From NCBI RefSeq assembly GCF_022539665.2, contig NC_081331.1, forward strand, positions 10,168,001 to 10,232,000: a DNA stretch of 64,000 bases. The letters are read 5' to 3'. Below are positions 28,203-45,398 of this stretch, in pieces (the first letter of the stretch is position 1; each line of letters begins with the position of its first letter). Source of the DNA: Daphnia carinata. Its lineage: Eukaryota. Both the position numbers and the translations under genes were made by a program. The notes beneath the pieces were generated by a model. That model was not told the origin of the DNA, made no database searches, and was given only the letters and a program-made list of their open reading frames with translations.

Positions 28203-31200
28203 TTATGGAAGGTATCCCAAGGAATTTTCTAATTCACTTCGCTTCGAGAAACCATTCTTATTGTTCCGGTTTGCGCCTCGAAAATGCATCGAGCTGTAAG
28301 CATCATCAGTGGAAAGCTCAGACGCCGTGTCTTCGGTTGCCTCACTGTCATCAATGACAATATCCGTGGTTTGGTTGAGCTTGATGTTGGAAAACATGGC
28401 CGCTATTTCGGTCGTCTTCTTAGCCGAAAGCGCACCTTCTGGCACCGCCTTCGTGATGGAACGATGGTGGTGTTGACTGTGATGAGTCGATCCAGCTGAT
28501 GAGGTTCCTCGGTAAACAACCTTGCCCTTGGGGTCCACTGCCGACACCATCAGAAACTGGAATAATAGGCTATTATTACAAGGAATCCAATCAAGGATAA
28601 AAAGAAACCAAAATAAGGAAAACAAAATCAATAAAAACAAATTCGTACTTTATTGCCACGAAACGAGTTTTGTGACTTTAGTGATCTATCGCTAGAGGAA
28701 TTCGAATTCCTCCGGCCCTCGCTAACGGAACTCAGATTTTCCAAGCTGAAATTCCTCGATGTCCGTCCGCTGCTGCCCGTCGAATCATAACTTTGGTATC
28801 CGACCGATTCCGCTGGGCTGGTTTTACGCTGCTGTCGTTGCTGTTGGCTGGAAATCGAAACTGGACCGCGGACGAAACTGTTGCAACTCGTCGAATCCAT
28901 TTCCGTCTCGCTTGATAAATACGAACTACGGCTTTTCCTGCGTAAAATCTCTGGCTGTTTAGCGAACGAACTTTTGCCGTTAGCCGACTTGTGGGCCGGC
29001 TCAGTCATGGCTACCACATCCGAATCTAATGACGTGTCACTTAAATAAGAGCTTAAACTCTTTTGCCTCAAAGAAGATGCGCTGGACAACGTAAAGCGGG
29101 TAGATGGCGCGGAAGGCTTAGTTGTCGTTGCTGGAGCGGAATGTTGCAAATTAGCCGTATTTCTTCGCCAGGCAGTTAATGGAGACTCGGCTCCGGATAA
29201 AGCAGACCAGGACGTCATACTAGCCGATTTTCTTGCATAATTCGGACGATTCTTTGTAGGCTTAATGTGAGGTGGATGTCTGACGGCCGGTTCGGGCAAA
29301 CTGTCGTGGCTTGTGTCTGTGTCATCAGAGTCGAGACGGATGCGATAAACTGGAGCCCCGCTCGACTTGCTGATTCTCTTTAACGAGCAGTAACATCGTT
29401 CAGCGTCGCTGTAATCAGTGGTGTCTTGCGACTGTGTTTCGTTGAATGAACAATAGCATTTATGTGAACACGATTCACTGTCATAGCCGCATTCAGAACA
29501 GGATGCACTGTAATCAGGCGCTTTGTTGACGATGCTGTTCTTGTTGTTGGCGACAACAGACCTCGGTGGCAACGGCGTCTTGGGATTGAAATGCTTGGTT
29601 GGGAAAACCAATGGAGCCACGGAAACAATGGAGGGCTCCGGGCTCTTAATAATTTTAATGTTCTTAATTAGCTGAGGCTCGGATGCTTGTTTCTCTTCCT
29701 TGGTAACAGAGTAACCGGTGGATGCGGAGCGGGCAGCGCCCCATTTCGAGAAAGACTTTTTGGTGGCTCTCAAGACGCTACTGATGCGTGAAGAACTGGT
29801 ACTGTGCTCAGCGTCCGAATCCCGTCCGGCCGATTTATTGGTCCCGTTTCTGGTGATATCTGCTTTGGCTTTCGACTTGGTTTTGCTCAGATTACTCGTC
29901 TGGTGCCTCATTATGTTCTTGGAGCGCTGGAACATCTCGTCCTTGCTCAGTGTCAAGGCTAGTTTCATCAGCATCTCTTTGTAGGCCGGCGTCAAATCAT
30001 TGAAAGACATTCGGTCTTTATTGACTATTGTTTTCAGGACATCGTCTACACTCCGAACACCTTCATGTTTCTGCGCAAAGTAAGAAATGCGAATATTAAA
30101 AAAAAAAACCGAACTTTAAATAGAATCATTAAAAATTGTACCTTTAATTCTTCAAAAAGTTCGGAAAAGGAGTAATTTTGTTGTGGAACGGTCATGAAAC
30201 TCTTGCTTCGCGGAATGGCTACTTTGGTGAGTATGTCTCCATTGTTACCGTGATCCGGCCCGTCCAACCCATCTGACGTTAATACCTCGCCCAAATGTCG
30301 CTCAGACACGCTACGTTTAACAACAACACGGCCGGTGTTACTCCGTTGGCTAGCGTTACGCATACTGCGACGTAAATTTGCTTTGCCTTGCGAAGATCTC
30401 GTTTTATTTTGACTTCGTCGGATACTCTTCCGTCTTTCAAGGCCTCCATCAAGAGGCTTTGAGGATTTCTTGCGTCGCGGCGGGCGAACGGGCTGCGTGA
30501 AACTTGAAGTGACTGAACTCTCGCTCCAATTAGAGACACTGGTCGAGGGCGAGTAGATGGGTTGAGCAATTTTGTTAACGGGAGTAGCAGATGTCGGCGG
30601 AGGTGGTGGTGCCTGTTGTTGCGGTGGTTGTTGCTGCTGTTGCGATGATTCATTGTTTTTCATATTGCGCAGCAGGGCCTGGTAGAGATTAGCTGCAATA
30701 ACAATGGCGTCTTCGGGATTGTCGCAAACGAATGCGTGACATTCCAAGTTCTTTGGAGCCTGCGTGTTGCGCATGACGCAGGTAAACAATGGCGGGTGGA
30801 AGGTGGGTGAAGTCACCCATTCTCCGTCATCAGCCGGGCTCAGCGGGTGGAAAAGATTCTGTTTGTCCTGATTCTCCGGATCGCAAATGAGCGGCAAAAA
30901 GGCAAACTTTCGCCCGCCGGGCTCGGAACGTGCCACAAACTTGACGGCCGCCCAAACGGCAATAGTGGGAAATGGGTTTAAGATCTCCTTAGGAACAGAG
31001 GGTCTACGATTGTCTGACAAATAGTATTGGATTTTCAAACCGGCTGGAGAAATTTCCATTGTACCGCGGTAGATTTTATTCCTGTTCGCATTTTCATGCT
31101 GCCGATATTGGCTATAAAGCTCTTTCAATGGAAACTGGAGCGACTCCAGGCTTGTAGCTCGGCCTGGAAGGGATAACGAGCCAAGATAATCAACTTTGTA

Positions 31201-31959
31201 CTGATTGGTATTGGTCATTGATGATGAGGAAGGCGGCGACGGTGGTGGCACGGCCGGAATCGGTGGAAGAGGAACATTTTGCTTGTTATGCACTGCTTTT
31301 TGAGTAGGTAACGGGTAGTCGGAACGGACATTGATCACCGCTTTATGATTCGTTATGTTGATAACGGACGAGCTCGGATCATTCACGGTCGATGGTGACG
31401 ACGTTGAGACGTGATGGTTCATCGCCGTTTTGTTCGATTGCTGGCCGTTGCTATTTGTTGATGCATCTTGGAACATCTTCTCAATTTGCGCTTGAACGGC
31501 TGTGCGGGCCTCGTTGAAACGCTGGGCTCGACTCTCAGGTGTTGAATCACGCATCAACGTGTGATTTACCTGATTGTTGACTTGAATGTACGTCGTCGAA
31601 TTATTTTTGGAGGCCGGAGTGGCTGGAACAGGTGATGTGACGCTTCCGCGTTGTTCGGCCAAAACCTTTTGGAAATGCAGTTGCAAATGTTCCATGGTTG
31701 GTTCATCCACTGCCGCGTCATCTTCTTCCTCGATGAGCGTCTTGTGGTTCTCGCTCGTGTGGCGGCGGAGATGTTGTTGCCGGAACAAGCTGTCGATTCT
31801 TTCCTTGTAGACGGAGCTGTCCAGAGTCGACGCACCACTGTGATCAGATATGAGAGTTCCGGTTGGGCTACCGCCGTTCACATCACCGTTGTTGCCGTTG
31901 CTGTTCACCAATCGGAATGTGTAGCCCCGTTCACCGGCTTCCGGGCGGTATCTCACCAT
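28203..31959 (-). CDS. Large PTB/PID-domain, Ser-rich protein (~1197 aa; resembles the Drosophila CG12581-type family). Exons 31959-30142, 30070-28649, 28556-28203
   Basis: Three long ORFs join in frame through two short phase-0 GT-AG introns. PTB-like segment YKVDYLGS...HPPLFTCVMR...LECHAFVCDNPEDAIVIAANLYQAL; C-terminus ELENSLGYLP. Confidence 0.8.
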
Positions 31960-34514
31960 TCCTTCTTCTTGTACCTGTTAAGAAAAATAAACAACGAAAA
32001 TGAACCAATTGAAAAGGAATTTTCTTCATCAATTCCCAAGAACAAGACAGTTGAAAATAATGGCGAAACACTAAACAAAAAAAAAAAAAAAAAAAAACAG
32101 TTGAAGAAAGAAAGAAAAAAACAATTCCGGCTGAGATGAAAGAGTGCGCGGGAAACGATCACAGCTGGCAGGCGGCCAAGACTTGCCGGGGGTCTTGAAT
32201 AGAAATAATAATAAAATATCGTAGTGAGTTAGCAAATATAGCACCTTTCCTTTTATCGTATAAGAAATCTAGATTCGAATATATGCGATTGGAGAACAAC
32301 AGAATAGCATCTACGCAAAAAAGAATTAGTTGCCCAATCCCAATAGCACAAACCATTTTGTTGTGTCAATAGTTTATGGCATTCCCATTTTAAGGTAACA
32401 AGTCATCTGGAAAGATCGCCTTGATAATGAAAACATAAGACCTGATAACCACCCATTTCAAAAAAATTTCCCATTTTGCTTCATTTTCACAGAACATTTT
32501 CTTTTCAAGGTCGATGGCTACTGCGAGTCCACTGAACTTCTTTCGTTTCTTTCTCTATTACACACTCGTTTGCCAGAAAAAAGTTTCTTCTTCTTCGGTG
32601 CCTATGGGATGTTGGCAGTGGGCACGGTGAGGCGGCAATCGGTGGCTGCCTCTTTAGTTCCAGACAACAGATGGTCTCTTACTTTTTCCTCGAGACCAAT
32701 AGCCTTTCTCTACCCTCCCTCTCTGCACGCACTTACACTTTTTTTTCTTCCTGAGCCGAAATTCCCCCCACCAGGGCGCCTTCAGGGCGACATGTCTGAA
32801 TAATTTGATCTAGTCTGCATTAACGTTTTTTCCTTTCTTTCTAGTATTTTCTGTTTCTTATAAAATATGGTATTTAAAAAGCAATCAGCTTCACACACAC
32901 AAAAAAAGATACTTTCCGTACTTGAGTATACATTCTCCCTCTTCTACCCTCAACTAGCACCTGCCCGCTTTGCTTTGATTAATAATTGCCCAACGGGACT
33001 AATCCATTACTATGAAATAGCCTTGCAGAGACGCATGTTTTGTTTTTTATTTTCTTAGCTTGTCGGCTTAAGGATACGTTCGATGGCTCCCAACTTCAGG
33101 GGAGGCATCATTTCGATGTCTTTGACCTTCACCCTACGTGTTGGGATCGTTTCAAATTGAGCGCCACCAGCACCTGCGCACTGCTCCCTATCACGTTACA
33201 AAATCTAGACGTTTATATTAAAAAGAGGCGACGATCATCGCAATACCGCCTTTTTTATAACGTAATCGGCTACTCTTCGGTGTCACTCAGTGTCGTTGTA
33301 ACGCATTGGGAGTGAGAGACGGAGCATTCGAGCGCGACACCGTGATAAATTTGAGTTGGGCGGGCATTGCTTGTCAGGAAAAATGGAAAGCGCTTGGCTG
33401 GTCAAGCGCATCCAAGAAGTTCTTCTTCTTCAAAACTGCCGCCCCAACTCATAGTACGGTTATGAATATTTGCACCGTATACGCAGAGAAAAATAAAAAT
33501 AAATAACACAAAAGCAAACCATACGACAACGGAATGAACAAATACCTTCATCCGCGCCACGGAACACTGGTCAACGCTACTGAAGCTCTCATAAGAAACT
33601 AAAAGCTTTCCATCGTTTGACATGGCAAATCACCTTTTGTTTCTTCTTTTACTAACAAACCCGGAAGCCTTTTGGGAGGTGGTGAATAAAAAAAAAAGGC
33701 ACCTGATTTTGTGTGATTCTTTTTCCTGCTTTCTTGAGTGCATACATGTTTCCGTCTTTCTCCGGACAGTAAAAAAAAAGTATGAAACAATAATAAATGA
33801 ACTTGCAAACACAGCTGTCGTGTTCCCGAGCGGAATTCAACAAAAGGATGAAAAGAAAAAAACAAATCGTAATGACGAAAAAAAGCGCGACCAAGTTCGA
33901 AATGTGGTCTGACGCACACCAGCTGGTCGAACCGTGACCAACAAAAGAAAGAGGGAAAAAAAACGGCGATAGACTCACGAAATTCAAGAACGTTTTTCCT
34001 GTAAATCAGCTAAATTAGGAAGGAAGGTAAGAACGGGGAAAAAAATCGGGAAAGTGTTGTGTAATCAAGCAGTTTCGTGCTGTGCTCTAATATGTTTACG
34101 TTACTTGCACCGAGGAAAATCGATAAAAATTGATGGGCTGTGAGCTCGTAGAGTAATCGAAAAATGGTAACAACGAGAGAAGCTAAGAATTTATCGAGCA
34201 CGAGAGTTGTTGCGCCGGCACGCTTCGCTGACCTCGTAAACGACCAGAAAAGAAGAACTAAAACTTGAATTTATCTTTCCCACCGTCAGGTTGAACGACA
34301 GCTACTTGTGTTCTCTTCACGTACGAACAATTTCCCGAAAGAGATACGACCGCCTAATCTTCGCCTTTTTATCTGCGCCACTTTGTTCTGACAATCGAAT
34401 GTGTCAGTGACTTTGGCAACGCTTTAAAAAAAAATCTGAGTGATCTAACTAACTAGCTTCGTTGCTAATTTCGCTTTAGGAACAACAACCGATTATGAAG
34501 AAAAACGACTTTAC

Positions 34515-34918
34515 CTTTTAGAGATGACCCCCGTGTGTGCCTTGGATGTGAATGATGTTTGCAGACGAGAAACAACAAGAAGACGGATGAACACGGATCT
34601 TTGCTAAGAAATGGGCAGCGGGACATGCGACTTTGTAAGCGGTTCGAGAGGTACTACCAACTGGCTGCAGGGATGTTCCAGGCGGGCAGATTGCGTTTCC
34701 TCGGCAAGAAGCAAAAGAGTCACAGAGACGAATCGGGTGGGAGGAGCTCTCAGTTGCTTGGTTCCTTCGGCTGACGGCTGCTGTTGTTTCGGCAAAACTT
34801 GCTGGTCGGTCAGTCAGTCGAAAATACGGGTACACTCACCTATACCAAAAGGCATGATGTTTTATTTTTCCTTGAATAAATCACGAGAGTTCCACCAACC
34901 GCTGTCGACCGTACAAAC
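34515..34918 (-). other. Probable upstream non-coding exon of the PTB gene
   Basis: Donor AAAG|GTAAAG at 34515/34514 and acceptor-like GCAG|G near 34919. An in-frame TAA just before the donor makes it UTR relative to the 31974 acceptor. Confidence 0.35.
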
Positions 34919-37364
34919 CTGCTGACATCAATACAATGCATGCTGATTTTTTGTGAGATCCAATCAGTCCTCCAGGACAAAAAAAGACACGGTACCAAAA
35001 GGACAAGGCCCAGCTGTCGTCCAGGATATTCACTTCCGTGGAATCTGGAAAACCGTTTACATTCTACAATTAACGAATTAAATTGCGGGAAAACACATAC
35101 AATACGACCTTGAAAATGCAAGTTTTTTTTTCTTCTCCTCATTCCCTTGACTGATGAAGAATTTTTGCGATGCCAATGAGGAGGGGCTATTGTCCGTCTT
35201 TTTACGTGACAGCCTTTTTTGGATGGTGTAAGATCCACCGAAGAATAAACCTAAGGAATGAAGAAGTAAATGACTGAGTTATAGGTAATGTGTCCTGAAT
35301 CATCAGAGCGTCTTCTTTCTCAACATAGCTATTGAAATGAAAAATTCCAAGCTGGGCCAATTCTTCTTTTACGTTGTTATTCCCGTCTTCCGTCGTAAAT
35401 CGCTCAGTCGTAAATTCGTAACACGACCCTCTTAAAAAAAAAAAGGCGAGATTCATCTGATCCGATCAATTCAAAAGCTACTTTTTCCTTGAGGGATGGG
35501 AAGCGTATCTACTACTAAACATGACTATTTGGAAAAGTCCACAATAAAAAAAAAAATGATACAAACCTTGTCCATCTCTTCCCCTTCTTTTATTTATTTA
35601 CATTTTTTTTAAAGCCGATAAAACCAGTGACGCTCCAGGTGAAGTATCTCGTCATCTCGACTGGAACCTTGCGGTCAATACGAAGGTTGAGCAATCTCGT
35701 AAAGGTTCCCAGCCCCTGGTGTTTCCAAAGAGAGATTCACTGCTTATTACCGCTACTACAAATATGGAAAAGGATAAGAATGCCATGATGGATAAAAAAA
35801 GAAATCGATGAGGTTGTCGACACAAATCGGGTACGCCTATTTTCACAAATCGGAAAAATTCCACGCTAAATCCTCTTCCTTTCCGGCCCAATTATTCGCT
35901 CCTAGAATCGGAAAAACATTTTTGCTTTTATCCATCCCATCCGGATGAGGAAGAATCTAAAAAGAATCAATATCCTTGTGGGAAAAGAAGAATGGCGACG
36001 GTATGTCGTATAATTACTTGTCCGATCTTGTGCCAATTGGCGTTGAGAATTGTAGAGGACCATCCAGACCGGAAAGGCTTTTAATAGAAACAAACGTCCA
36101 TAAGAGATAAATCACTTATTGTAGGTTAGATAACAGCAATGGAAATTTATATCTTTACATGTGAAAGAATGGCAGAATTGGTCGAGGCCGGCAAGGATGA
36201 GGAAATATTAACGGGCATTGATTACTAGAGTGGGAAAAAAAGCGGTATACACTTGTATAAAAATGTCGTTTCACTGAAGAGATGCACATTTCTTTTGTTT
36301 TTCTCTGACTTTTTTCTGACCGTTTGTGGCTTTTTTCTCCATGCGGACGTCAGCCGGTTCTTTTCTTCTTAGACGGGCAAAAACGTTATTCGCAGAAAAA
36401 ATGTGAAGAAAATGCATTTTATATTTCTTGGGACGTAAGTACAGTAGAGGCTGGTTTTTTTCAAACATCCTGCTGGCCCCAGTGTTGAGAAATCACATAA
36501 CTAGACCCATTGACGTTCGGGAAACTTCTACGACTGAACAAATTCTATTATCTGTTACGTCTAAGTTTTGAAGCAAAGATGGTTGTAAAACGCAACGAAC
36601 CAGAGACGACGACGAAGGAAGTAAAATAACGGTGCAACGTCCGCTATCAACATCCATCTTGCTTTAGACCTAGTCTTTGAAGACATTTATTGAAAGCAAT
36701 CATCGATCGTAGTAATGTTCGGTGATTTAGCAAAATCCTAACTCAATAGCTGTGACTTCGATTGGTACAAGTTTGGGCGTATAACCACATCAAACGATGG
36801 TTTTCCTGGTATTCGAAACTTTTTTTTTAACACAAGTTTAAAGCAATCGAAGTATTTTTAATCAAAAACGCGCAGCGAAACCTAATAATAACAACGGACT
36901 ATCTTTACAACGTTGATGCTCCACCGGTTATCCATAGACATTGTATGCGTGGCGACAAGGGACGTCTTCGTTTCCCAAGTCGGAAACACCTGAATCGCAC
37001 ACTCAACGCACACAGAATCCCATAGCGAAATTGTAAGCTCACCTGAAGCGTTTCCAATTCCCACCATCACCCGATGTCGGTGACGAAAAGCAACAGCGGA
37101 AAGAGGGGGACAACAAACGTATCCTAAGCTTTTTCGTCGTTTCCCTATACGATCAGATTTAATACATACTATGATGTACATAAACATTTGTTTATTTTCT
37201 TTGTACTTTTTACTTAACAAATTTTTTAGTGATTTATACGGGATTAGAACGCAACACTCGGGAGAGCTCAGCGATGTTTTAGTGTGTAACAAAACAAAAA
37301 TAAAAAGAAAGCTTAATCTGAGTTTTGAGACTTTTCTATCACATGATAAAAAAAAAGCGGACGA

Positions 37365-37439
37365 AAAAGGCAAAAACATCAGGACATGGAAGATTTGTTA
37401 ATTAAAAAATTTTTACTCTCACGCCTTCATAAACCTTTT
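37365..37439 (-). promoter_or_regulatory. SECIS element (type II-like) in the 3'UTR of the SelH gene
   Basis: Minus strand AAAAGGUUU-AUGAA-GGCGUGAGAGU-AAAAAUUUUUUAAUU-AACAAAUCUUCCAUGUCC-UGAU-GUUUUUGCCUUUU. It has the AUGA/UGA core, an ~11-bp helix II, apical AA, and helix I AAAAGGU/GCCUUUU, about 150 nt after the stop codon. Confidence 0.85.
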
Positions 37440-37589: not shown

Positions 37590-40209
37590 TTAAGCTAGGG
37601 CTTCCTTTAAGCCAGCAATCAAAGAATTAGGATCCGGAAATTTGAGACGTCGTGGCGGACCACGCTTAATTCCGCTCCATAATATAGTCTCTGAAAAACA
37701 AGATCAAATATAGGTATGTGACCTTTTGGGCAACCCCAGCTAATCTAAACGAAAATTGCCATACCGACACCATGGGAATTGGTCACTATGATTTCGAACG
37801 CCCCCCTACGCGGAGCCGAAACATTCATTTCCACCACCAGGTCAGCGCAATGTTGGAGGAACAGCTCTTGAATTTCAAGAGCCTTCCTCTTGAATACGGA
37901 TCAGGATTTGCTATGCCATAACCACACTATCACGGACAACCTTTCATGCAAACGAAAGTAAGGTATGGTGGCACTTACCAATGTTCCATTGCGACCCGCG
38001 ATGAAGCGCGAGGCTTCTTCATGTTGCCATTGTCATTATTTTCTCCTTCAGAATCCTACGGAAACGAAGGTTCAATATTAATTTTTATACTAAACGTGGA
38101 AACTGGAAAACAAACTGACCCGTTTTTTTGCACGCGCCCATCTCGTCGATGCCCCTTTTTTACCAGCAGCTGACAGTTTCTCGTGTGTGCTTGGTTCGTC
38201 TTCCTCCGATTCACCCGCGGAATTCTTTATACCAATAACCAATTTAAAAAAACAGACCGACATATAGACTCCTTAACTAAAAAACTTGCTTGTTGTTGCT
38301 GAGCGTGTGCCTTTCGTGTCGCTGCTGCCTTTCTCCCCGCCTCGACCCTAATTTTATGCAATCGGGCAGCTTTTTCATCTTCATTCTCGTCACCCTCTTC
38401 TTCTTCAGCCGAACCCTTGGAAGAAAAATTTAATGAAAGATGGCTCATTATCTGTGAATTACCATACGATGTTATACCTCGCCCTTTTCGCGAGCCCATC
38501 GGGCTGAGGCTCCTTTTTTGCCGATTGCCGACAATTGTTCGTGTAAAACCGCATCGGCCTCTTCGTCCGACTGCACTCCAGGATCCTATTGAGAAATAAT
38601 CTTCCATTAGAATGTACTTCTCAACTGGATACATGATATTTAAAAATAAACCTGCTCCTTCAGCCGTTGCTTACGTGTCGCCATTGATTTCTTTCCTGCT
38701 TGTACTCTGATCTCATGCATCCGGGCTTCCTTCTCGTCTTCGTCTTCTTCTTGTTCTTCACCCTCACCCTGATCGCCGCCCTTAACATAAAGATACGGAA
38801 TTAGGCATACATTACTCGATACAATGATATCGCCATTGATTTCGCAAATTAGACGCTGACTAATTAACGTCAATATTTACACCGTCATGCTTACTTGTCC
38901 TTTGTCGTACGACCATCTCGCTGCTGCGCCTTTCTTACCGATGGCTGACAACTGGTCGTGCAGGACTGCGTCAGCCTCTTCATCCGACTGTATTCCAGGA
39001 TCCTTAAAAAAAAAAAATGTTTTCTGTTTAAGCAAACCTATTGGATTTGAATCTTCCAAGTTGGTAACCTGTTCTCTGATATGTTGTTTTCTTGTTGCAA
39101 TTGCTTTCTTCCCTGCTTCTACTCTGATATTGTGCAACCGTGCTTCTTTATCCTCTTCTCCTTGATTCTCTTCCTCCCCCCCATTGTCCTTTTCAAGTAA
39201 AAAAAAAATGGTAAGTAAGAACTGGTACAGTATGCTCCCATGATTGTTTTCGAAAGTGAAAGACCAAAGGAGGGAGGATACTGCGATGGTCAACCTACCT
39301 CATCGTTGTCCCGCGACCATCTAGCTGAAGCTCCTTTTTTACCGATGGCTGATAACTGATCGTGTAAGACAGTGTCTGCGTCTTTGTCTGATTTGACGTT
39401 AGGATCCTACCAAAAGTAAGATTATGGAATTATAAGTCCAACCTTCTGCTATAAATACTATACAAACCTGTTCTTTAATGTGAGCCTTTCTTGTTGCAAT
39501 TGCTTTCTTCCCTGCTTCCACTCTTATTTTATGCATCCGATCTTCTTTATTTTCTCCTTCTCCTTCCTCTTCTCCTTCCTCTTCAAAATTTTCTTCTTCT
39601 TCCACAGGTTCCTCTTGAAATTCCTCTTTATACGCTTCTTTGTCATCTTCATTTTCTTCGTTCATTTCATAGTCTGGATCAGGACCCTTGCAAAGAATAC
39701 CAACATTACCAATAAGCACAAAATTACAAGCAATTGGTAAATCCAATGCTGAACTCACTCCTTCTTGTTCTTGTCTTTCTTTTGACCACCTCACTGAGGC
39801 ACCCTTCTTGCCAGCTGACGCAAGTTTTTTGTGAGTGCTAGGTTCTACATGTTTCCCTCCTGATTCCTGCTATAGAACAAAACATTGCAATTGTTGGTAG
39901 TAATAAATGAAGGTCACCATTTCTACTAACCTTTTTGCTTTTATCAAACTTCATTGTTTTCTCTTTTTCTTCTTCATCAGCCATTTCTTCAAGTTGTTTC
40001 ACCTTTGTGTCCTTTCCTTTTGGTTTAGCAGCAACCAATTTAGCTTTTGCCGCAGCCCCAGCAAGGGGTGGTTTTCCGTTTGAAGATTTTGATTGTTCGG
40101 AATTCCAGGATTTCGATTCTGGGATAACATCTTCAATTATATCATCTGCTCGGATGGCATCCGCAGCTTTCTTCTCTGCAACTTCTGCAGCACGTCTTCG
40201 CTGGGACAT
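37590..40209 (-). CDS. SELENOH: Selenoprotein H (SelH/BthD family) with a long repeat-containing N-terminal extension, ~578 aa, 13 exons: 40209-39931, 39869-39759, 39686-39468, 39406-39299, 39188-39069, 39002-38895, 38780-38652, 38585-38478, 38415-38290, 38224-38120, 38055-37979, 37910-37765, 37690-37590
   Basis: The spliced C-terminus reads VAMEHCKS-UGA-SVFKRKALEIQELFLQHCADLVVEMNVSAPRRGAFEIIVTNSHGVETILWSGIKRGPPRRLKFPDPNSLIAGLKEALA*. This aligns by eye with SelH (IEHCxxU...PRRGSFEV...LWTGIKKGPPRKLKFP). TGA is at 37903-37901 and all exons keep frame. Confidence 0.88.
38120..39869 (-). repeat. Exon-level tandem protein repeat, alternating B-A-B-A-B-A-B-A-B
   Basis: Type B (5 copies, 35-37 aa) contains HxxLSAxGKKGASARW. 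Type A (4 copies) is an acidic run followed by R[LM]HxIRV[EQ]AG[KR]KAxATRK. Each repeat is one phase-0 exon. Confidence 0.9.
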
Positions 40210-40670: not shown

Positions 40671-41625
40671 TATGGTAATCCGTTTTACCCCCCAAAAAAA
40701 AAAAATATTGTTATTTTTTCAGTTTTATACTATCGCCATCTACCGATCAGATTTCTAGCTAATTCTCTACATACACTTACCGAATATTTATGCTGCATCG
40801 CGCTGGCGCTGTAGCGTACTGGCGCTTGGGCTTTTTGTACATACACTGACCGAAAAAAATTTTAAGCCCGACTAAATAAGGCCGACTTTTTGTTTTTTAC
40901 GGTTAATTCAAAAAGCAGAAGCCTGATACAAAAATATACCCCATTTTCGTGATCAGCGATCAATTCAAATCGGAATAATGTATTTAAAAAAAATCAAGGA
41001 TTTGAAGAAAATTGGAAAAATGAGAAGGCCTTCTCACTTTTTCAATTTTGGCAAAATTTTAGATTTCGCTTTAAATACATAGCTTCGATGCAGAATTGAA
41101 CGGGCAACACGAATATGAGGATTTTTTTCTCGTGGGACTCATTGCTTTTGAATAAATCGTAATAAAAGGTTAAAGTTGGATTAAAAAATAAGCCCGACTT
41201 TACCTTTCGGGCTTAAAAATCGTTCCTATTAAAAAATAATATCATTAAATCTCGTTAACTATACAGGATTATCATTCAAAATTAACCAAGGAACACGAAA
41301 ATGGAATTTGTTTTCACGTAGAGTATATACCTTTGGAATAATCTAAAATATAATTTTAAGTGTGTGTGCGAAACGAAACCATTACTAGCGCGCCAGTACG
41401 CCACAGCACTAGCGTGACACATCAAACTTCTTTGATTATTCAAAAACCATAAACTCTACGTGAAATCAAATTTCATTTTCGACTTCCTTGTTAAATTTTG
41501 AATCAGAATCATATATAGTTATGTAGATTTAATGATATTATTTTTTAATAGGGAAAAATTTTAAGCCCGACAATATAAACCCGACTTTCTGCTGTATCGC
41601 GAGAACGGATTGCCATATTGCCATA
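40671..41625. mobile_element. Non-autonomous TIR DNA element (~950 bp)
   Basis: Termini TATGGTAATCCGTT and AACGGATTGCCATA (right end carries a duplicated TTGCCATA), flanked by ATTTTT on both sides (40665-40670, 41626-41631). The first ~80 nt resemble 46282-46360. No ORF; internal AAGCCCGAC repeats. Confidence 0.65.
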
Positions 41626-41786: not shown

Positions 41787-42530
41787 ATGGTTAGATTCAA
41801 GAACCGGTAAAATATTTGTATTCAACAATATTAACCTTAATAATTTTAACTATTTCCGTCTCTTTAAAATGGATAAATATTGAGCAATGTAAATGAAGAT
41901 TCATTTGAAGAGAAGTTTATCGTTTGGGTCTCTGATGTATGTTCTACTTGCTCATTTGATTTTTACAATTTTATCAGGTATTTTACTACAGAGATCACAC
42001 CCCTGGATGATGGACATACTGCGCAACCTCTAAATTTAAAAACGTACGATATCCTGAAATCGGTTCTTGCTGCAACTGAACAAATACATGGAGAGTTTGG
42101 GGCTGCAGCAATTAAGAATGGATTAGAGGGTATATTTTGTTTTTCTTGGCTATCGTAAAAGCAGAAATTAGAAAATATTTGCAATCTCTAGTCAAATATT
42201 CCAATGAAAGTACCCAAATAGCAATAATCCGATGTAGACATGGCCCACATAGGCTTTTAGCCTCATCTCTTCCTTTCTTGTCCAGTATTGGAAAAAGGAA
42301 AGTTCAGCTTCAAAGTATGTATACAGGGGCAACTTTGGTAAAATGCTATAAATTCTTAAAGGTTAGTATGATACAAGAGTTGTTTAGGTAAAGAATTCTT
42401 TTCTATAAGTTTTGTTTCTTTGTAGAAATTTCATCAGGAAAAAATTAATGAAGCTTTGAAAACGTGCAGAACAGAACAAGAAAAAAAGAAAGTTTTGGAA
42501 ATTATGTCCAAGACAAAGTATGGATTGTGA
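41787..42530 (+). CDS. POP5: RNase P/MRP subunit POP5, 4 exons
   Basis: Spliced MVRFKNR|YFTTEI...HGEFGAAAIKNGLE|VKYSNESTQIAIIRCRHGPHRLLASSLPFL...GATLVKCYKFLK|KFHQEK...YGL*. The MVRFKxRY start is diagnostic. Confidence 0.9.
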
Positions 42531-42581
42531 AACTTCTGAAAATGGCCAATACACTTTATTTTCAATTATATTTCTATATTA

Positions 42582-43323
42582 TTAGTGCCTCATATAGTAG
42601 TCTATTGCAGTAGAGAATGCTGCAAATCCTAATGCTCCTACAATTCCTGGTTTAAGTCCAGCTCTGAGACCAATCAGTCCACCAGTGATTCCACCAGCCT
42701 ACAATTAAAGAATTTTTATTTAAAAGTATGTTGTAGGTTATTTCAGAAATACATACATAAGTTCCATTTTTCCAATCTCCTTTTCCTCTATACTATAAAC
42801 AAAATAATGCATTATGCAAACAATGGTATTTACAGCAACATAAACTGTACTCACAGATTCAATGGTGCACTCTACTGCTGAAAACATAAGACCAACAACA
42901 GCAAAGTTTTTGGCATAGCTAAGGGTAGAGAATTTTAAATCCCTGAAGATTTCTCTTGCTGACTGTTGGGGTGCATCAGGTGCTGTGATATTTGGACTGA
43001 CACTGGCACTGAACAAACCCAATGCAGCTCCCAAACCGTACCCTGCAAAATTCATTAAAAAGCTGCAAGATGTGGAGCTTGTTTCTAAATAAGAGTAATT
43101 ATGAATTACCCATGACACTTGCAACGAGTGACTTGAAAGCACATGATTCAAAAACTGCTTCTACTCGTTTCTCATCAACACTTTTTATGTGAATTGGACC
43201 AACTGTTCTGGGGATGATAATTTGTTCACGATATTTGCAGTTGTTTCCGACGAAGTATTTCATTAAGGAATCCATCTCCTTCGGCGAAAAACCAACGGAA
43301 GAATCTGTTTTCGATTCCTCCAT
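42582..43323 (-). CDS. TIMM22: Mitochondrial import translocase subunit TIM22, 4 exons including a 36-nt exon ([12 protein letters not shown])
   Basis: [29 protein letters not shown]...[31 protein letters not shown]...[37 protein letters not shown]. Confidence 0.93.
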
Positions 43324-43901
43324 GTTCCGTCAAAAAAGTAATCAGTTTCGATATGTAGTTACTGACACACAACCACTTTTAGACAATTCCTACGGCAGCG
43401 CTAACGTCAGTTATTTAAAAAATCGTTACTATTACAAACTAGATAAGTTAGAATGCCCGTAGAAATGGGCACCAAAGATGAGTTCTACGAAGAGCAACAC
43501 AGGATTCGGAGTGTAGTAATATCGTCTGCTGTTTGGCCCAGCATTGCCCATCACAGATAAAAATTTCAAGCTAACCAATCCAATCGTAACGTTACAATAG
43601 TCTGCTGCTGCAATATAGTATATTTACGGAAATAAGAAACCCCCAAAAAATGAAAGAAAAGACAAGAAATGAAGGAGAAAGAACCTTGAATTAAGACTCT
43701 TCCCGATTCAATGGAACGTAGAACCACGGAATGTTAAAAACACATTTCGATCACCAAATAAAGTTTCTTGATTAATATAACTGAATAGAAAATTATGACG
43801 CCTACATTTACCAACTGAATAATGACAAATATATTTACGCCCAAGGAAACCCAGAACGAACTTGGAATTTTGCCTTCCCTTAAGAGAAGAATTAGGCATT
43901 G

Positions 43902-45398
43902 AGTTTCTCGTTGATGAAGGTTTCCAACTTGACTGCGTCAACTGCGAATTTGCGGATGCTAAAATTTGTAGACGTATTAGTTATTTTCTTTAAATGACTA
44001 AATGTTAGCTATCCTAGAAACCAAATTACCCATCACTGAGTTTGTCAGTAGCCATCTGATCTTCATTTAACATCCATCGGAAAGCCTTCTCGTCCAAAGA
44101 AATGCGTTCGAGATCGTAAGATTTGGCTTGTTCTGCATCTAATTTTCTAGCGACTGTTGTCGTACTAGCATCTAGTTCTTCCAGCAACTTCGGGCTAATC
44201 GTTAAAAGATCGCATCCTGCAAGAGCAATTACCTCGCCTACGAATCGATATAATGGGTTACCTCTATTCACAAATTTACATAGCGTTTGGGTATACCAGT
44301 GTTTCGGAAGGATGCTCCCATCACAACAGTTTTATAGCCAAATTTTTTATAGTAATTATAGATCTGGGTGACCGACTTTACTCCAGGATCATCTTCCGGA
44401 GCATAAGATTTGGTGGAAGTGTTGCTAACATACCTGATGACGAGAATTTAAAACTTTGTTACCCATTTGTACATCTCAATTGTTTTTTACCAATCCAAAA
44501 TGCGACCAACGAATGGGGATATCAGCGTAACACCGGCCTCGGCACATGCAACCGCTTGACAGAAACTGAACAAGAGCGTTAAGTTGCAGTGAACATCGTG
44601 CTTTTCCTCCAGTTCCCTGCGTGATAGCATTTGTTAAAACAAATTAATAAATAAAGGAAACACAAGATGTTACATTGTATAATATAGATAATAACTTTGA
44701 TTACTTTGCTGCCTGAATTCCTTCCCAGGTCGAGGCCAATTTAATAAGAACTCTTTCTTTGTCGATACCCTCTTCGGCGTACAGCTCGATAAGCTTGAGA
44801 GCTTTCTTCACGCTTCCTTCTTGGTCAAAAGAAAGTCTGTGGACGAGAAAACGAAAGTTAAGGGACATAATTCAGTATTCACCATCCACATGGTGGTAAA
44901 CCACCTTGCATCCACTTCGGTAGAAACGCGACCAGGAACAATTTTCAATATTTCAACCCCAAACAAGACAAACAGCTTATCCATCGTTGCAGCCAACTTT
45001 GCAGCATTGTCTCTAACACAAGCAGACATCAGAATTAATTTGAATACTTAAGACTGATGCTTCAATGCATTGGTTGACATCGCAATTGTGTTTTTTAGAA
45101 TACCCATCCTGCTTTTTGCCATAATCAACAGCTTTCTGAACAAGATGTTGATATTGAGGCAGGGTGGCAGCAGCTAACAGTAAAGATGGATTGGTGGTTG
45201 CATCAGTAGGTTTGTACTTGATCATGGCTGTAATCAAAAAATGTGTTTACTAAAAGTGATTTGCCAACTGATTGTCAAGAATTCCAGGCAGTTAAAAATG
45301 ACAATAAAAAAGATTTTAATAACAAGGGCTCATTTACTTTCAAAATCTCCTGTGTCAGCCACCACTACTGTCATGGTCTTTAGTTGTTCCAATGCCAT
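43902..45398 (-). CDS. TALDO1: Transaldolase (multi-exon; 5'UTR exon ends near 45546)
   Basis: [113 protein letters not shown] motifs. Confidence 0.96.

What the first reader, a model, noticed from the sequence alone, without database searches (positions are those of the whole stretch)
38120..39869. One-exon-one-repeat A/B alternation with KGG/LEA-like motifs
Seen: nine phase-0 exons alternate strictly between motif B (LHDQLSAIGKKGASARW-like) and motif A (acidic tract plus RLHxIRVEAGKKAIATRK-like), a clear record of two-exon cassette duplication. Any exon could be skipped without frameshift. Inference: the xxxG[KR]KG/A cores resemble the KGG stress-repeat of bacterial GsiB/YciG, fungal Con-10 and group 1 LEA/Em hydrophilins, suggesting a desiccation or dormancy role, or a charge-patterned phase-separating region.
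Basis: partly seen in the sequence, partly recalled or inferred. Interest (0 to 1): 0.7.

Follow-up and report, generated by a model that had tools for sequence, protein, structure and literature searches.

The report
Selenoprotein H with exon-built repeat arm
The nine alternating exons are real and encode a charged, floppy arm of nine short helices at the front of a water-flea gene whose far end is predicted to be a selenium antioxidant enzyme (selenoprotein H) that public gene models cut off, and the arm likely tethers the enzyme to nucleic acid, with a seed-protein-like drying-protection role as the runner-up.

Summary
Observation confirmed: nine phase-0 exons (39869-38120, minus strand) run B-A-B-A-B-A-B-A-B. 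They are exons 2-10 of a 13-exon gene identical to Daphnia carinata LOC130692579. The finding leaves out what follows: exons 11-13 encode a selenoprotein H domain (CxxU with in-frame TGA, SECIS-like hairpin in the 3' UTR, both kept in a pulex-type contig). The carinata, sinensis and pulex public proteins stop at that TGA, unnamed or called nucleolin-like. A and B are one ancestral unit (invariant H, G, K, R), predicted as isolated helices between acidic linkers, under purifying selection. Inner A+B pairs arose by cassette duplication, but pulex-type copies run A-A-A-B or hybrid-A-A-A-B-A-B, so strict alternation is lineage-specific. No window repeat meets Pfam KGG or LEA_5 cut-offs. Yet the repeat profile finds proteins that do hit KGG, LEA_5 and Con-6, plus homing-endonuclease and phage tails, and 8 of 9 units fit the group 1 LEA motif in one register. 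Best reading: SelH with a multivalent nucleic-acid or nucleolar tether (inferred); LEA-like protection is the rival. Exon skipping and expression untested. New variant of a known kind.

The parts
39931..40209 (-). Coding exon 1 (93 aa): basic start with the AAEVAEKK block, kept in all relatives
   Evidence: block also in P0033, P0084
39759..39869 (-). E2, B-type repeat (closer to E10 than to E4/E6/E8); tandem acceptor 39869/39866
39468..39686 (-). E3, long acidic tract plus A-type repeat
39299..39406 (-). E4, B-type repeat (inner cassette)
39069..39188 (-). E5, A-type repeat (inner cassette)
38895..39002 (-). E6, B-type repeat (inner cassette)
38652..38780 (-). E7, A-type repeat (inner cassette)
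38478..38585 (-). E8, B-type repeat (inner cassette)
38290..38415 (-). E9, A-type repeat of the terminal pair shared with pulex-type copies; GC donor
38120..38224 (-). E10, B-type repeat of the terminal pair
37979..38055 (-). E11: linker and first strand of the SelH domain, ends in the first two bases of the Cys codon of CxxU
37765..37910 (-). E12: Rdx/SelH core with in-frame TGA at 37903-37901 (predicted Sec, residue 500)
   Evidence: (TIGR02174 E=7.3e-6; Pfam Rdx E=0.011)
37590..37690 (-). E13: SelH C-terminal block (LW..GPPR.LKFP) and TAA stop
   Evidence: by-eye match to human SELENOH seen
37366..37438 (-). SECIS-like hairpin in the 3' UTR (ATGA ... AA ... GA core)
   Evidence: SECIS_1 20.1 bits, below the 35-bit cut-off; core conserved in L001; fold

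Best explanation
The nine exons encode the disordered front arm of a predicted 578-residue selenoprotein H, and the arm likely works as a multivalent tether that holds the redox domain on nucleic acid or in the nucleolus. Shown: exon structure; identity with the public carinata protein up to the TGA; one shared unit H-x6-G-[KR]-K-x4-R per exon; basic cores (net +2 to +5 per 18 aa in the window) between acidic linkers (-2 to -25); purifying selection on the cores; TGA and SECIS core kept in a relative. Predicted: each core is a lone helix, with H, G and R on one face around small residues. Inferred: UGA is read as selenocysteine; the helices bind RNA or DNA weakly and add up; the acidic blocks mask them or drive condensate partitioning, as in nucleolin-type proteins; the arm takes over from the short basic DNA-binding N-terminus of vertebrate SelH; exon-sized phase-0 units let the number of helices change by duplication. 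Odds: gene is a Sec-SelH with this arm 0.9; tether role about 0.5 given that.
For: SelH domain: TIGR02174 E=7.3e-6 on exon 12 alone; CxxU, PRRG and GPPR..LKFP blocks match human SELENOH by eye (supplement of PMC10646972); pN 0.10 against pS 0.56 downstream of the TGA versus L001, so the part after the TGA is under coding constraint; three species' public proteins end at the same codon. SECIS core identical over 17 and 10 nt amid a diverged UTR. Repeats: pN 0.06-0.19 against pS 0.5-0.9 in the comparisons involving window cores; AlphaFold2 gives separate helices for 8 of 9 units, pTM 0.23; H0, G7, K9, R14 invariant in 16 of 16 cores, H/G/R at 0, 340, 320 degrees; charge blockiness above 300 of 300 shuffles. 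Human SelH is nucleolar and binds DNA without sequence preference (PMC10646972, passages). Like helices occur as repeats beside HNH and GIY-YIG nuclease domains and hit NUMOD3 or STPR profiles (P0077, P0099, P0106, P0107) and behind DUF6291 domains.
Against: No binding, location or expression data. The arm is net acidic (-29; whole protein -22), which would oppose nucleic-acid binding unless the blocks act apart. No window repeat hits a DNA-binding family, and there is no AT-hook core. The isolated human N-terminal peptide did not bind DNA (PMC10646972). The nearest non-daphnid multi-repeat proteins look like hydrophilins, not nucleic-acid binders: 9 of 39 scanned hits match KGG, LEA_5 or Con-6 at E<0.01. 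The SECIS is below Rfam's cut-off, gave no SECIS hit in L001, folds no better than shuffles (z -0.28 and -1.33), and my crude pattern scan missed it in L001 and gave 9 sites in the window. E2 is not helical in the model.
Confidence: 0.48

Rival explanations
1. The arm is a diverged group 1 LEA/KGG-type hydrophilin that protects proteins or other cell parts during drying, freezing or dormancy (resting eggs), fused to a selenium peroxide-handling domain.
For: Gly 9.3%, GRAVY -1.56. 8 of 9 units fit the published 20-residue group 1 LEA motif in the same register; 6 of 9 are matched by at most 7 of 300 shuffles. Profile of the nine cores finds P0071 (E=3.5e-7) and P0074 (1.5e-6), which hit LEA_5 at 1.5e-6 and 3.3e-6 and carry A-like then B-like units, and P0058 and P0016, which pass the KGG cut-off. 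Group 1 LEA is reported in another branchiopod, Artemia (PMC5014412, passages); a large KGG-domain disordered protein is needed for drying tolerance in Acinetobacter (10.1101/2021.08.11.455981, passages).
Against: No window exon or full protein hits KGG or LEA_5 (best is D. sinensis KGG E=0.071 over 11 aa). Units score 19-32 on the LEA motif against 54-57 for P0071; H1-like, endonuclease and phage cores score 24-34 too. Spacing is 36-76, not 20; B has Trp, which Em proteins lack (PMC12473993). No dormancy expression data.
Confidence: 0.27
2. The helices are repeated protein-binding motifs (for a histone, ribosomal protein, calmodulin-like or redox client), and the acidic tracts are a chaperone surface that delivers clients to the Sec site.
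For: Conserved H/G/R stripe with a small-residue notch suits helix docking in a groove; long D/E tracts are typical of chaperones for basic proteins (general knowledge); two fixed subtypes suggest two partners or two sites.
Against: Low hydrophobic moment (0.04-0.24); no matching family or solved structure; like cores occur in bacteria and phages, which lack those eukaryotic partners.
Confidence: 0.15
3. The main product is the repeat-only protein of 496-499 residues (UGA read as stop, or exon 12 skipped); the Sec form is minor.
For: Public isoform X2 ends at ...MEH, which is what joining E11 to E13 gives; X1 ends at the TGA.
Against: Four other acceptors give the same X2 end; the TGA lies 136 nt before the last junction, so stopping there would invite decay; the downstream frame and SECIS core are conserved.
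Confidence: 0.07
4. The array is neutral filler, tolerated because phase-0 exons duplicate easily.
For: Number and order differ between lineages.
Against: Core pN is far below pS among paralogous copies (0.08 vs 0.78 for B, 0.15 vs 0.50 for A); four residues invariant in 16 of 16 cores.
Confidence: 0.03

Closest known systems
Selenoprotein H (SELENOH, Drosophila BthD; Rdx family PF10262, TIGR02174)
   Same: C-terminal domain with CxxU, PRRG and GPPR..LKFP blocks; SECIS-like 3' UTR element; a basic start with an A..VAEK block like the human one (by eye).
   Different: Human SelH is 122 aa with Sec at 44 (PMC13437758); here Sec is at 500 behind about 470 extra residues with nine helical repeats; no AT-hook or RKRK motif.
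Group 1 LEA / Em proteins (Pfam LEA_5, PF00477)
   Same: Hydrophilic, Gly-rich, disordered; G-[RK]-K and T-R-K fall in the same register as the published 20-mer; LEA_5-like intermediates carry A-like and B-like units.
   Different: No Pfam hit; spacing 36-76 with acidic inserts, not 20; no EGY/EM or GG; Trp present; fused to an enzyme domain.
KGG repeat (PF10685; YciG, YmdF) and Con-6 (PF10346)
   Same: About 10-12 residue S.AG[KR]KG core shared with B (hhalign 73%, 12 columns); P0058 and P0016 hold units that are KGG in front and B-like behind.
   Different: The NFA..D.E front and the GG end are missing; KGG profile built from six named proteins scores 1.8 bits on the window protein.
NUMOD3/STPR-like helices of homing endonucleases and DUF6291 protein tails
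   Same: S.AG[KR]KGA..R[W] helix, repeated beside nuclease domains; B against these tails 98% in hhalign, though they were picked by the same profile.
   Different: They mostly lack the invariant His; no direct profile hit for window exons; likeness may be convergent.
Nucleolin / nucleophosmin-type acidic-basic disordered regions (recalled)
   Same: Alternating acidic and basic blocks; the D. pulex protein is labelled nucleolin-like.
   Different: No RRM or other nucleolin domain in Pfam; the label rests on composition.

Membership tests
Selenoprotein H (Rdx) | CxxU motif with in-frame UGA | tested here: met
   C497-x-x-U500; TGA at 37903-37901, kept in L001; carinata, sinensis and pulex proteins end there
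Selenoprotein H (Rdx) | Rdx / SelT-W-H profile match above cut-off | tested here: inconclusive
   Exon 12 alone (48 aa): TIGR02174 26.2 bits, E=7.3e-6, cut-off 34.2; Pfam Rdx 16.4, cut-off 22.6. The whole domain spans three exons and was not scanned.
Selenoprotein H (Rdx) | SelH-type C-terminal block (LW.G.K.GPPR.LKFP) | tested here: met
   E13 and L001 compared by eye with human SELENOH in the supplement of PMC10646972
Selenoprotein H (Rdx) | SECIS element in the 3' UTR | tested here: inconclusive
   SECIS_1 20.1 bits, cut-off 35, E=2.7; none in L001; but right place and strand, core arms identical in both
Selenoprotein H (Rdx) | N-terminal AT-hook-like and RKRK motif of the vertebrate protein | tested here: not met
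   No GRP core; only RRR at the start and KKR in E10. Feature as given for human SELENOH in PMC13437758; whether it defines invertebrate SelH was not checked.
Selenoprotein H (Rdx) | Sec insertion, redox activity, nucleolar location | not testable with these tools
   Needs labelling, assay and imaging
KGG repeat (PF10685) | Pfam KGG score above 20.4 bits | tested here: not met
   0 of 9 exons; none on P0002/P0030; D. sinensis 13.9 bits; controls YciG and YmdF 65 and 67 bits
KGG repeat (PF10685) | KGG tripeptide with the NFA..D.E front | tested here: not met
   Cores read KKGA or KKA; front columns score negative
KGG repeat (PF10685) | Stress-induced expression | not testable with these tools
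   No RNA run was listed
Group 1 LEA (LEA_5) | Pfam LEA_5 score above 40 bits | tested here: not met
   No hit on exons or full proteins
Group 1 LEA (LEA_5) | Tandem 20-residue motif | tested here: not met
   Spacing 36-43 and once 76; 4-8 of 20 positions identical
Group 1 LEA (LEA_5) | Core residues in register with the 20-mer | tested here: inconclusive
   8 of 9 units in one register, 6 of 9 at p<=0.023 by shuffling, but non-LEA cores picked by the same profile also pass
Hydrophilin (composition class) | High Gly and strong hydrophilicity (thresholds above 6% Gly and index beyond 1.0 are recalled) | tested here: met
   Gly 9.3%, GRAVY -1.56 over 378 aa; no compact fold predicted
Hydrophilin (composition class) | Induction by water loss and protective activity | not testable with these tools
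   No expression or assay data
NUMOD3 / STPR DNA-binding repeats | Profile match | tested here: not met
   No hit for window exons; hits only in some profile neighbours (P0013, P0077, P0099)

The most novel reading that the evidence does not exclude
Water fleas carry a hidden LEA-selenoenzyme fusion: a group 1 LEA/KGG-derived hydrophilin, chopped into one-exon units and re-expanded separately in each lineage, is joined to selenoprotein H, and the gene makes two products (arm alone, by exon 12 skipping or UGA stop; arm plus Sec domain) so that resting eggs get drying protection without selenium and coupled peroxide defence with it. It would be a second animal lineage with group 1 LEA-type sequence after Artemia.
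Probability: 0.18. Interest if true: 0.78.

Novelty: new variant of a known kind. Interest (0 to 1): 0.52.

Why it matters
It corrects an annotation gap in a model organism group: three public Daphnia proteins are truncated selenoproteins under empty or misleading names. It shows a small, well-known redox protein grown about fivefold by a modular arm whose unit number and order differ between Daphnia lineages, a clean case of exon-by-exon protein evolution. The unit belongs to a widespread short helix of unknown biochemistry that KGG, group 1 LEA, Con-6 and some nuclease repeats share; Daphnia offers genetics, dormant eggs and a natural copy-number series to find out what that helix binds.

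Tried and rejected
No whole genome is held for the window, so paralogues outside the 64 kb were not checked. No RNA holder was listed, so no reads were laid; splicing rests on the match to public models. The search for related loci in metagenome contigs: 595 pattern matches, none confirmed; a DNA pattern gave 1 locus, L001. ESM Atlas: no usable hit for P0030 160-475 or P0033. PDB sequence search: 0 hits for the core profile, only chance ankyrin hits (E>=0.24) for exon 12. PHROGs: 4 weak families, best E=0.043. tblastn of single repeats and of P0016 against plasmids or phages: no match. LEA_5 family search reached only E. coli (0 of 1; control rang in B. subtilis, no sequence returned), so no real Em or GsiB alignment was available and the LEA test used the published motif only. 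Pfam TIM21 hit (28.4 bits, over the cut-off) rejected: it is summed over repeats on profile positions 50-120 and the protein has no membrane segment. YL1 and Nif11 hits rejected as weak. A-to-B introns of the window show no clear mutual likeness (171 pairs, only E4-E5 with E6-E7 at z=3.5), so introns add little to the cassette case in this species. The pair count on the SECIS alignment was not obtained. No fold search was run on the low-confidence model (mean pLDDT 56), and no complex was predicted since no partner is claimed. Earlier findings of the scan: none in three look-ups.

Full report
OBSERVATION. Translation of the minus strand and exon mapping give a 13-exon coding gene from 40209 to 37590. 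Exons 2-10 lie between 39869 and 38120 as stated, are all multiples of three with phase-0 introns of 61-114 nt, and run B A B A B A B A B. The donor after E9 is GC; an unnamed relative reads V at that point (P0007), as a GT donor would. The spliced product up to the first TGA equals XP_057371701.1 of Daphnia carinata LOC130692579. D. sinensis KAI9565690.1 has the same nine units (458 identical positions of 499). No other copy of the unit lies in the window.

WHAT THE FINDING LEFT OUT. The frame does not end at the TGA. E11 and E12 together give C-x-x-TGA, and E12-E13 continue for 78 codons to a TAA (578 residues in all, Sec at 500). Exon 12 alone hits TIGR02174 SelT/SelW/SelH (E=7.3e-6, 26.2 bits, cut-off 34.2) and Pfam Rdx (E=0.011). 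By eye its blocks match human SELENOH as printed in the supplement of PMC10646972. Rfam SECIS_1 matches 37366-37438 on the same strand, about 150 nt after the stop, at 20.1 bits, below the 35-bit cut-off. The one related locus found, L001 (1 locus; pulex-type by likeness to the D. pulex protein), keeps the TGA, the downstream frame (pN 0.10, pS 0.56), the exon layout and the two SECIS core arms (17 and 10 identical nt in a diverged UTR), and its downstream DNA is syntenic with the window. Against: Rfam gave no SECIS in L001, neither hairpin folds better than shuffles, and my crude pattern scan missed L001 and gave 9 sites in the window. The public carinata X1, sinensis and D. pulex (XP_046447076.1, labelled nucleolin-like) proteins all end at the TGA. 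Carinata X2 ends three residues earlier, which joining E11 to E13 would give, as would four other acceptors. The TGA is 136 nt before the last junction.

THE REPEAT. A and B align without gaps over 30 columns with H, G, K and R invariant, also in 16 of 16 cores from the window and L001; L001 has a hybrid exon, so they are one ancestral unit. AlphaFold2 on a four-row alignment gives a separate helix for 8 of 9 units (not E2), low-confidence linkers and pTM 0.23. H, G and R lie on one face around small residues. Cores are basic, linkers acidic; charge blockiness exceeds 300 of 300 shuffles. Cores are under purifying selection (pN 0.06-0.19, pS 0.5-0.9 for comparisons with window cores).

HISTORY. 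On 69-nt cores, E3/E5/E7 and E4/E6/E8 form clades (95 and 96; other nodes are weak) and the A-to-B distance is always 36 residues, which fits duplication of an A+B cassette. E9-E10 is the terminal pair shared with L001; E2 is nearer E10 (64%) than E4/E6/E8 (52-54%). L001 runs hybrid-A-A-A-B-A-B, with its own recent cassette copy (B cores 96% alike; introns z=7.9, best of 171 pairs) and a single-exon copy (86%; z=4.2). The D. pulex X3 protein runs A-A-A-B; skipping or copy number cannot be told apart. P0059 has an A unit directly before E11-like sequence. Strict alternation is therefore a trait of the carinata/sinensis lineage. Skipping of repeat exons is frame-neutral but unshown.

KGG AND LEA. 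Direct tests fail: 0 of 9 exons hit KGG or LEA_5 at E<=10; full proteins give only D. sinensis KGG at E=0.071; a profile from six named KGG proteins scores 1.8 bits on P0030, and B shares only a 12-column core with it. Indirect tests are partly positive. The nine-core profile finds 61 proteins at E<=0.001 among 1.84 billion; 49 of 61 have all four invariant residues and 24 look like single exons read into an intron, taken as other cladoceran orthologues (inferred; three carry E11-like and one fragment exon-1-like sequence). I scanned 39 of the 53 new ones (14 short fragments left out): 9 of 39 hit KGG, LEA_5 or Con-6 at E<0.01, two of them over a cut-off (P0058 KGG, P0074 Con-6), and P0016 passes KGG too. 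P0071 and P0074 carry A-like then B-like units 20 residues apart and hit LEA_5 at about 1e-6. Against the published 20-residue group 1 LEA motif (PMC5014412, PMC12473993; passages), 8 of 9 window units take one register and 6 of 9 are matched by at most 7 of 300 shuffles, but they score 19-32 against 54-57 for P0071, and H1-like, endonuclease and phage-type cores also pass. The same search finds repeats beside HNH and GIY-YIG domains and a NUMOD3 match, and one search finds the B core behind DUF6291 domains. These neighbours were chosen by the profile, and repeat scores add up, so their E-values overstate kinship. The unit belongs to a widespread short helix; membership of KGG or LEA_5 is not met.

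MECHANISM. Human SelH is nucleolar, has a basic N-terminal segment thought to bind DNA, and binds DNA without sequence preference (PMC10646972, PMC13437758; passages). The Daphnia arm sits between a similar start block and the redox domain. I infer a multivalent tether: weak nucleic-acid-binding helices, damped or condensed by acidic blocks, tuned by exon number (0.48). The LEA-like protectant reading is second (0.27) and not exclusive; protein docking (0.15), a mainly repeat-only product (0.07) and neutral filler (0.03) follow.

NOVELTY. SelH is known in arthropods (PMC2500217, passages and section 26), and D. pulex is listed with 16 selenoproteins (PMC5330540, passages; the list itself and the supplements of these surveys were not seen and may include this SelH). 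Ten full-text searches listed no paper on a repeat arm in Daphnia SelH; most subscription papers are outside the library. Other papers seen as passages: PMC4244043, PMC9262955, PMC7161692, 10.1101/2021.08.11.455981. Verdict: new variant of a known kind, interest 0.52.

Noticed in passing
window 40791-41570: Nested inverted repeats (140-nt arms 84% complementary, 35-nt arms 80%) just upstream of the gene; looks like a non-autonomous DNA transposon.
   Followed up: no
window 41877-45246: Neighbours: Rpp14/Pop5-like (plus, E=0.002), Tim17/22 family (minus, E=2e-11) and transaldolase (minus, E=3e-11).
   Followed up: partly
window 33817-36703 and L001 2903-5772: Downstream gene region is syntenic at 68% identity; two ORF pieces scanned inside it had no Pfam hit.
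   Followed up: partly
window 36965-37064 and L001 2507-2608: A 100-nt block 78% conserved between the SECIS and the next gene; possibly a regulatory or UTR element.
   Followed up: no
window 39758-39687 and 39068-39003: Introns E2-E3 (72 nt) and E5-E6 (66 nt) are multiples of three without a stop, so retention would keep the frame.
   Followed up: no
window 37979 / 37690 joint: Skipping exon 12 would put a TGA at the Cys position of CxxU, upstream of the SECIS; it could be a stop or be recoded.
   Followed up: partly
P0010, P0012, P0022, P0056, P0058, P0071, P0074, P0108: Unnamed metagenome proteins, intron-free and strongly hydrophilic, with 2-15 A-like and B-like helices; they look like an unannotated branch of LEA_5/KGG/Con-6-type hydrophilins.
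   Followed up: partly
P0002, P0003, P0030: Pfam TIM21 passes its cut-off on these proteins by summing repeat matches; a likely source of wrong annotation.
   Followed up: yes
window 28203-31977: Large minus-strand exons with a weak PTB/PID match (E=1e-4).
   Followed up: no
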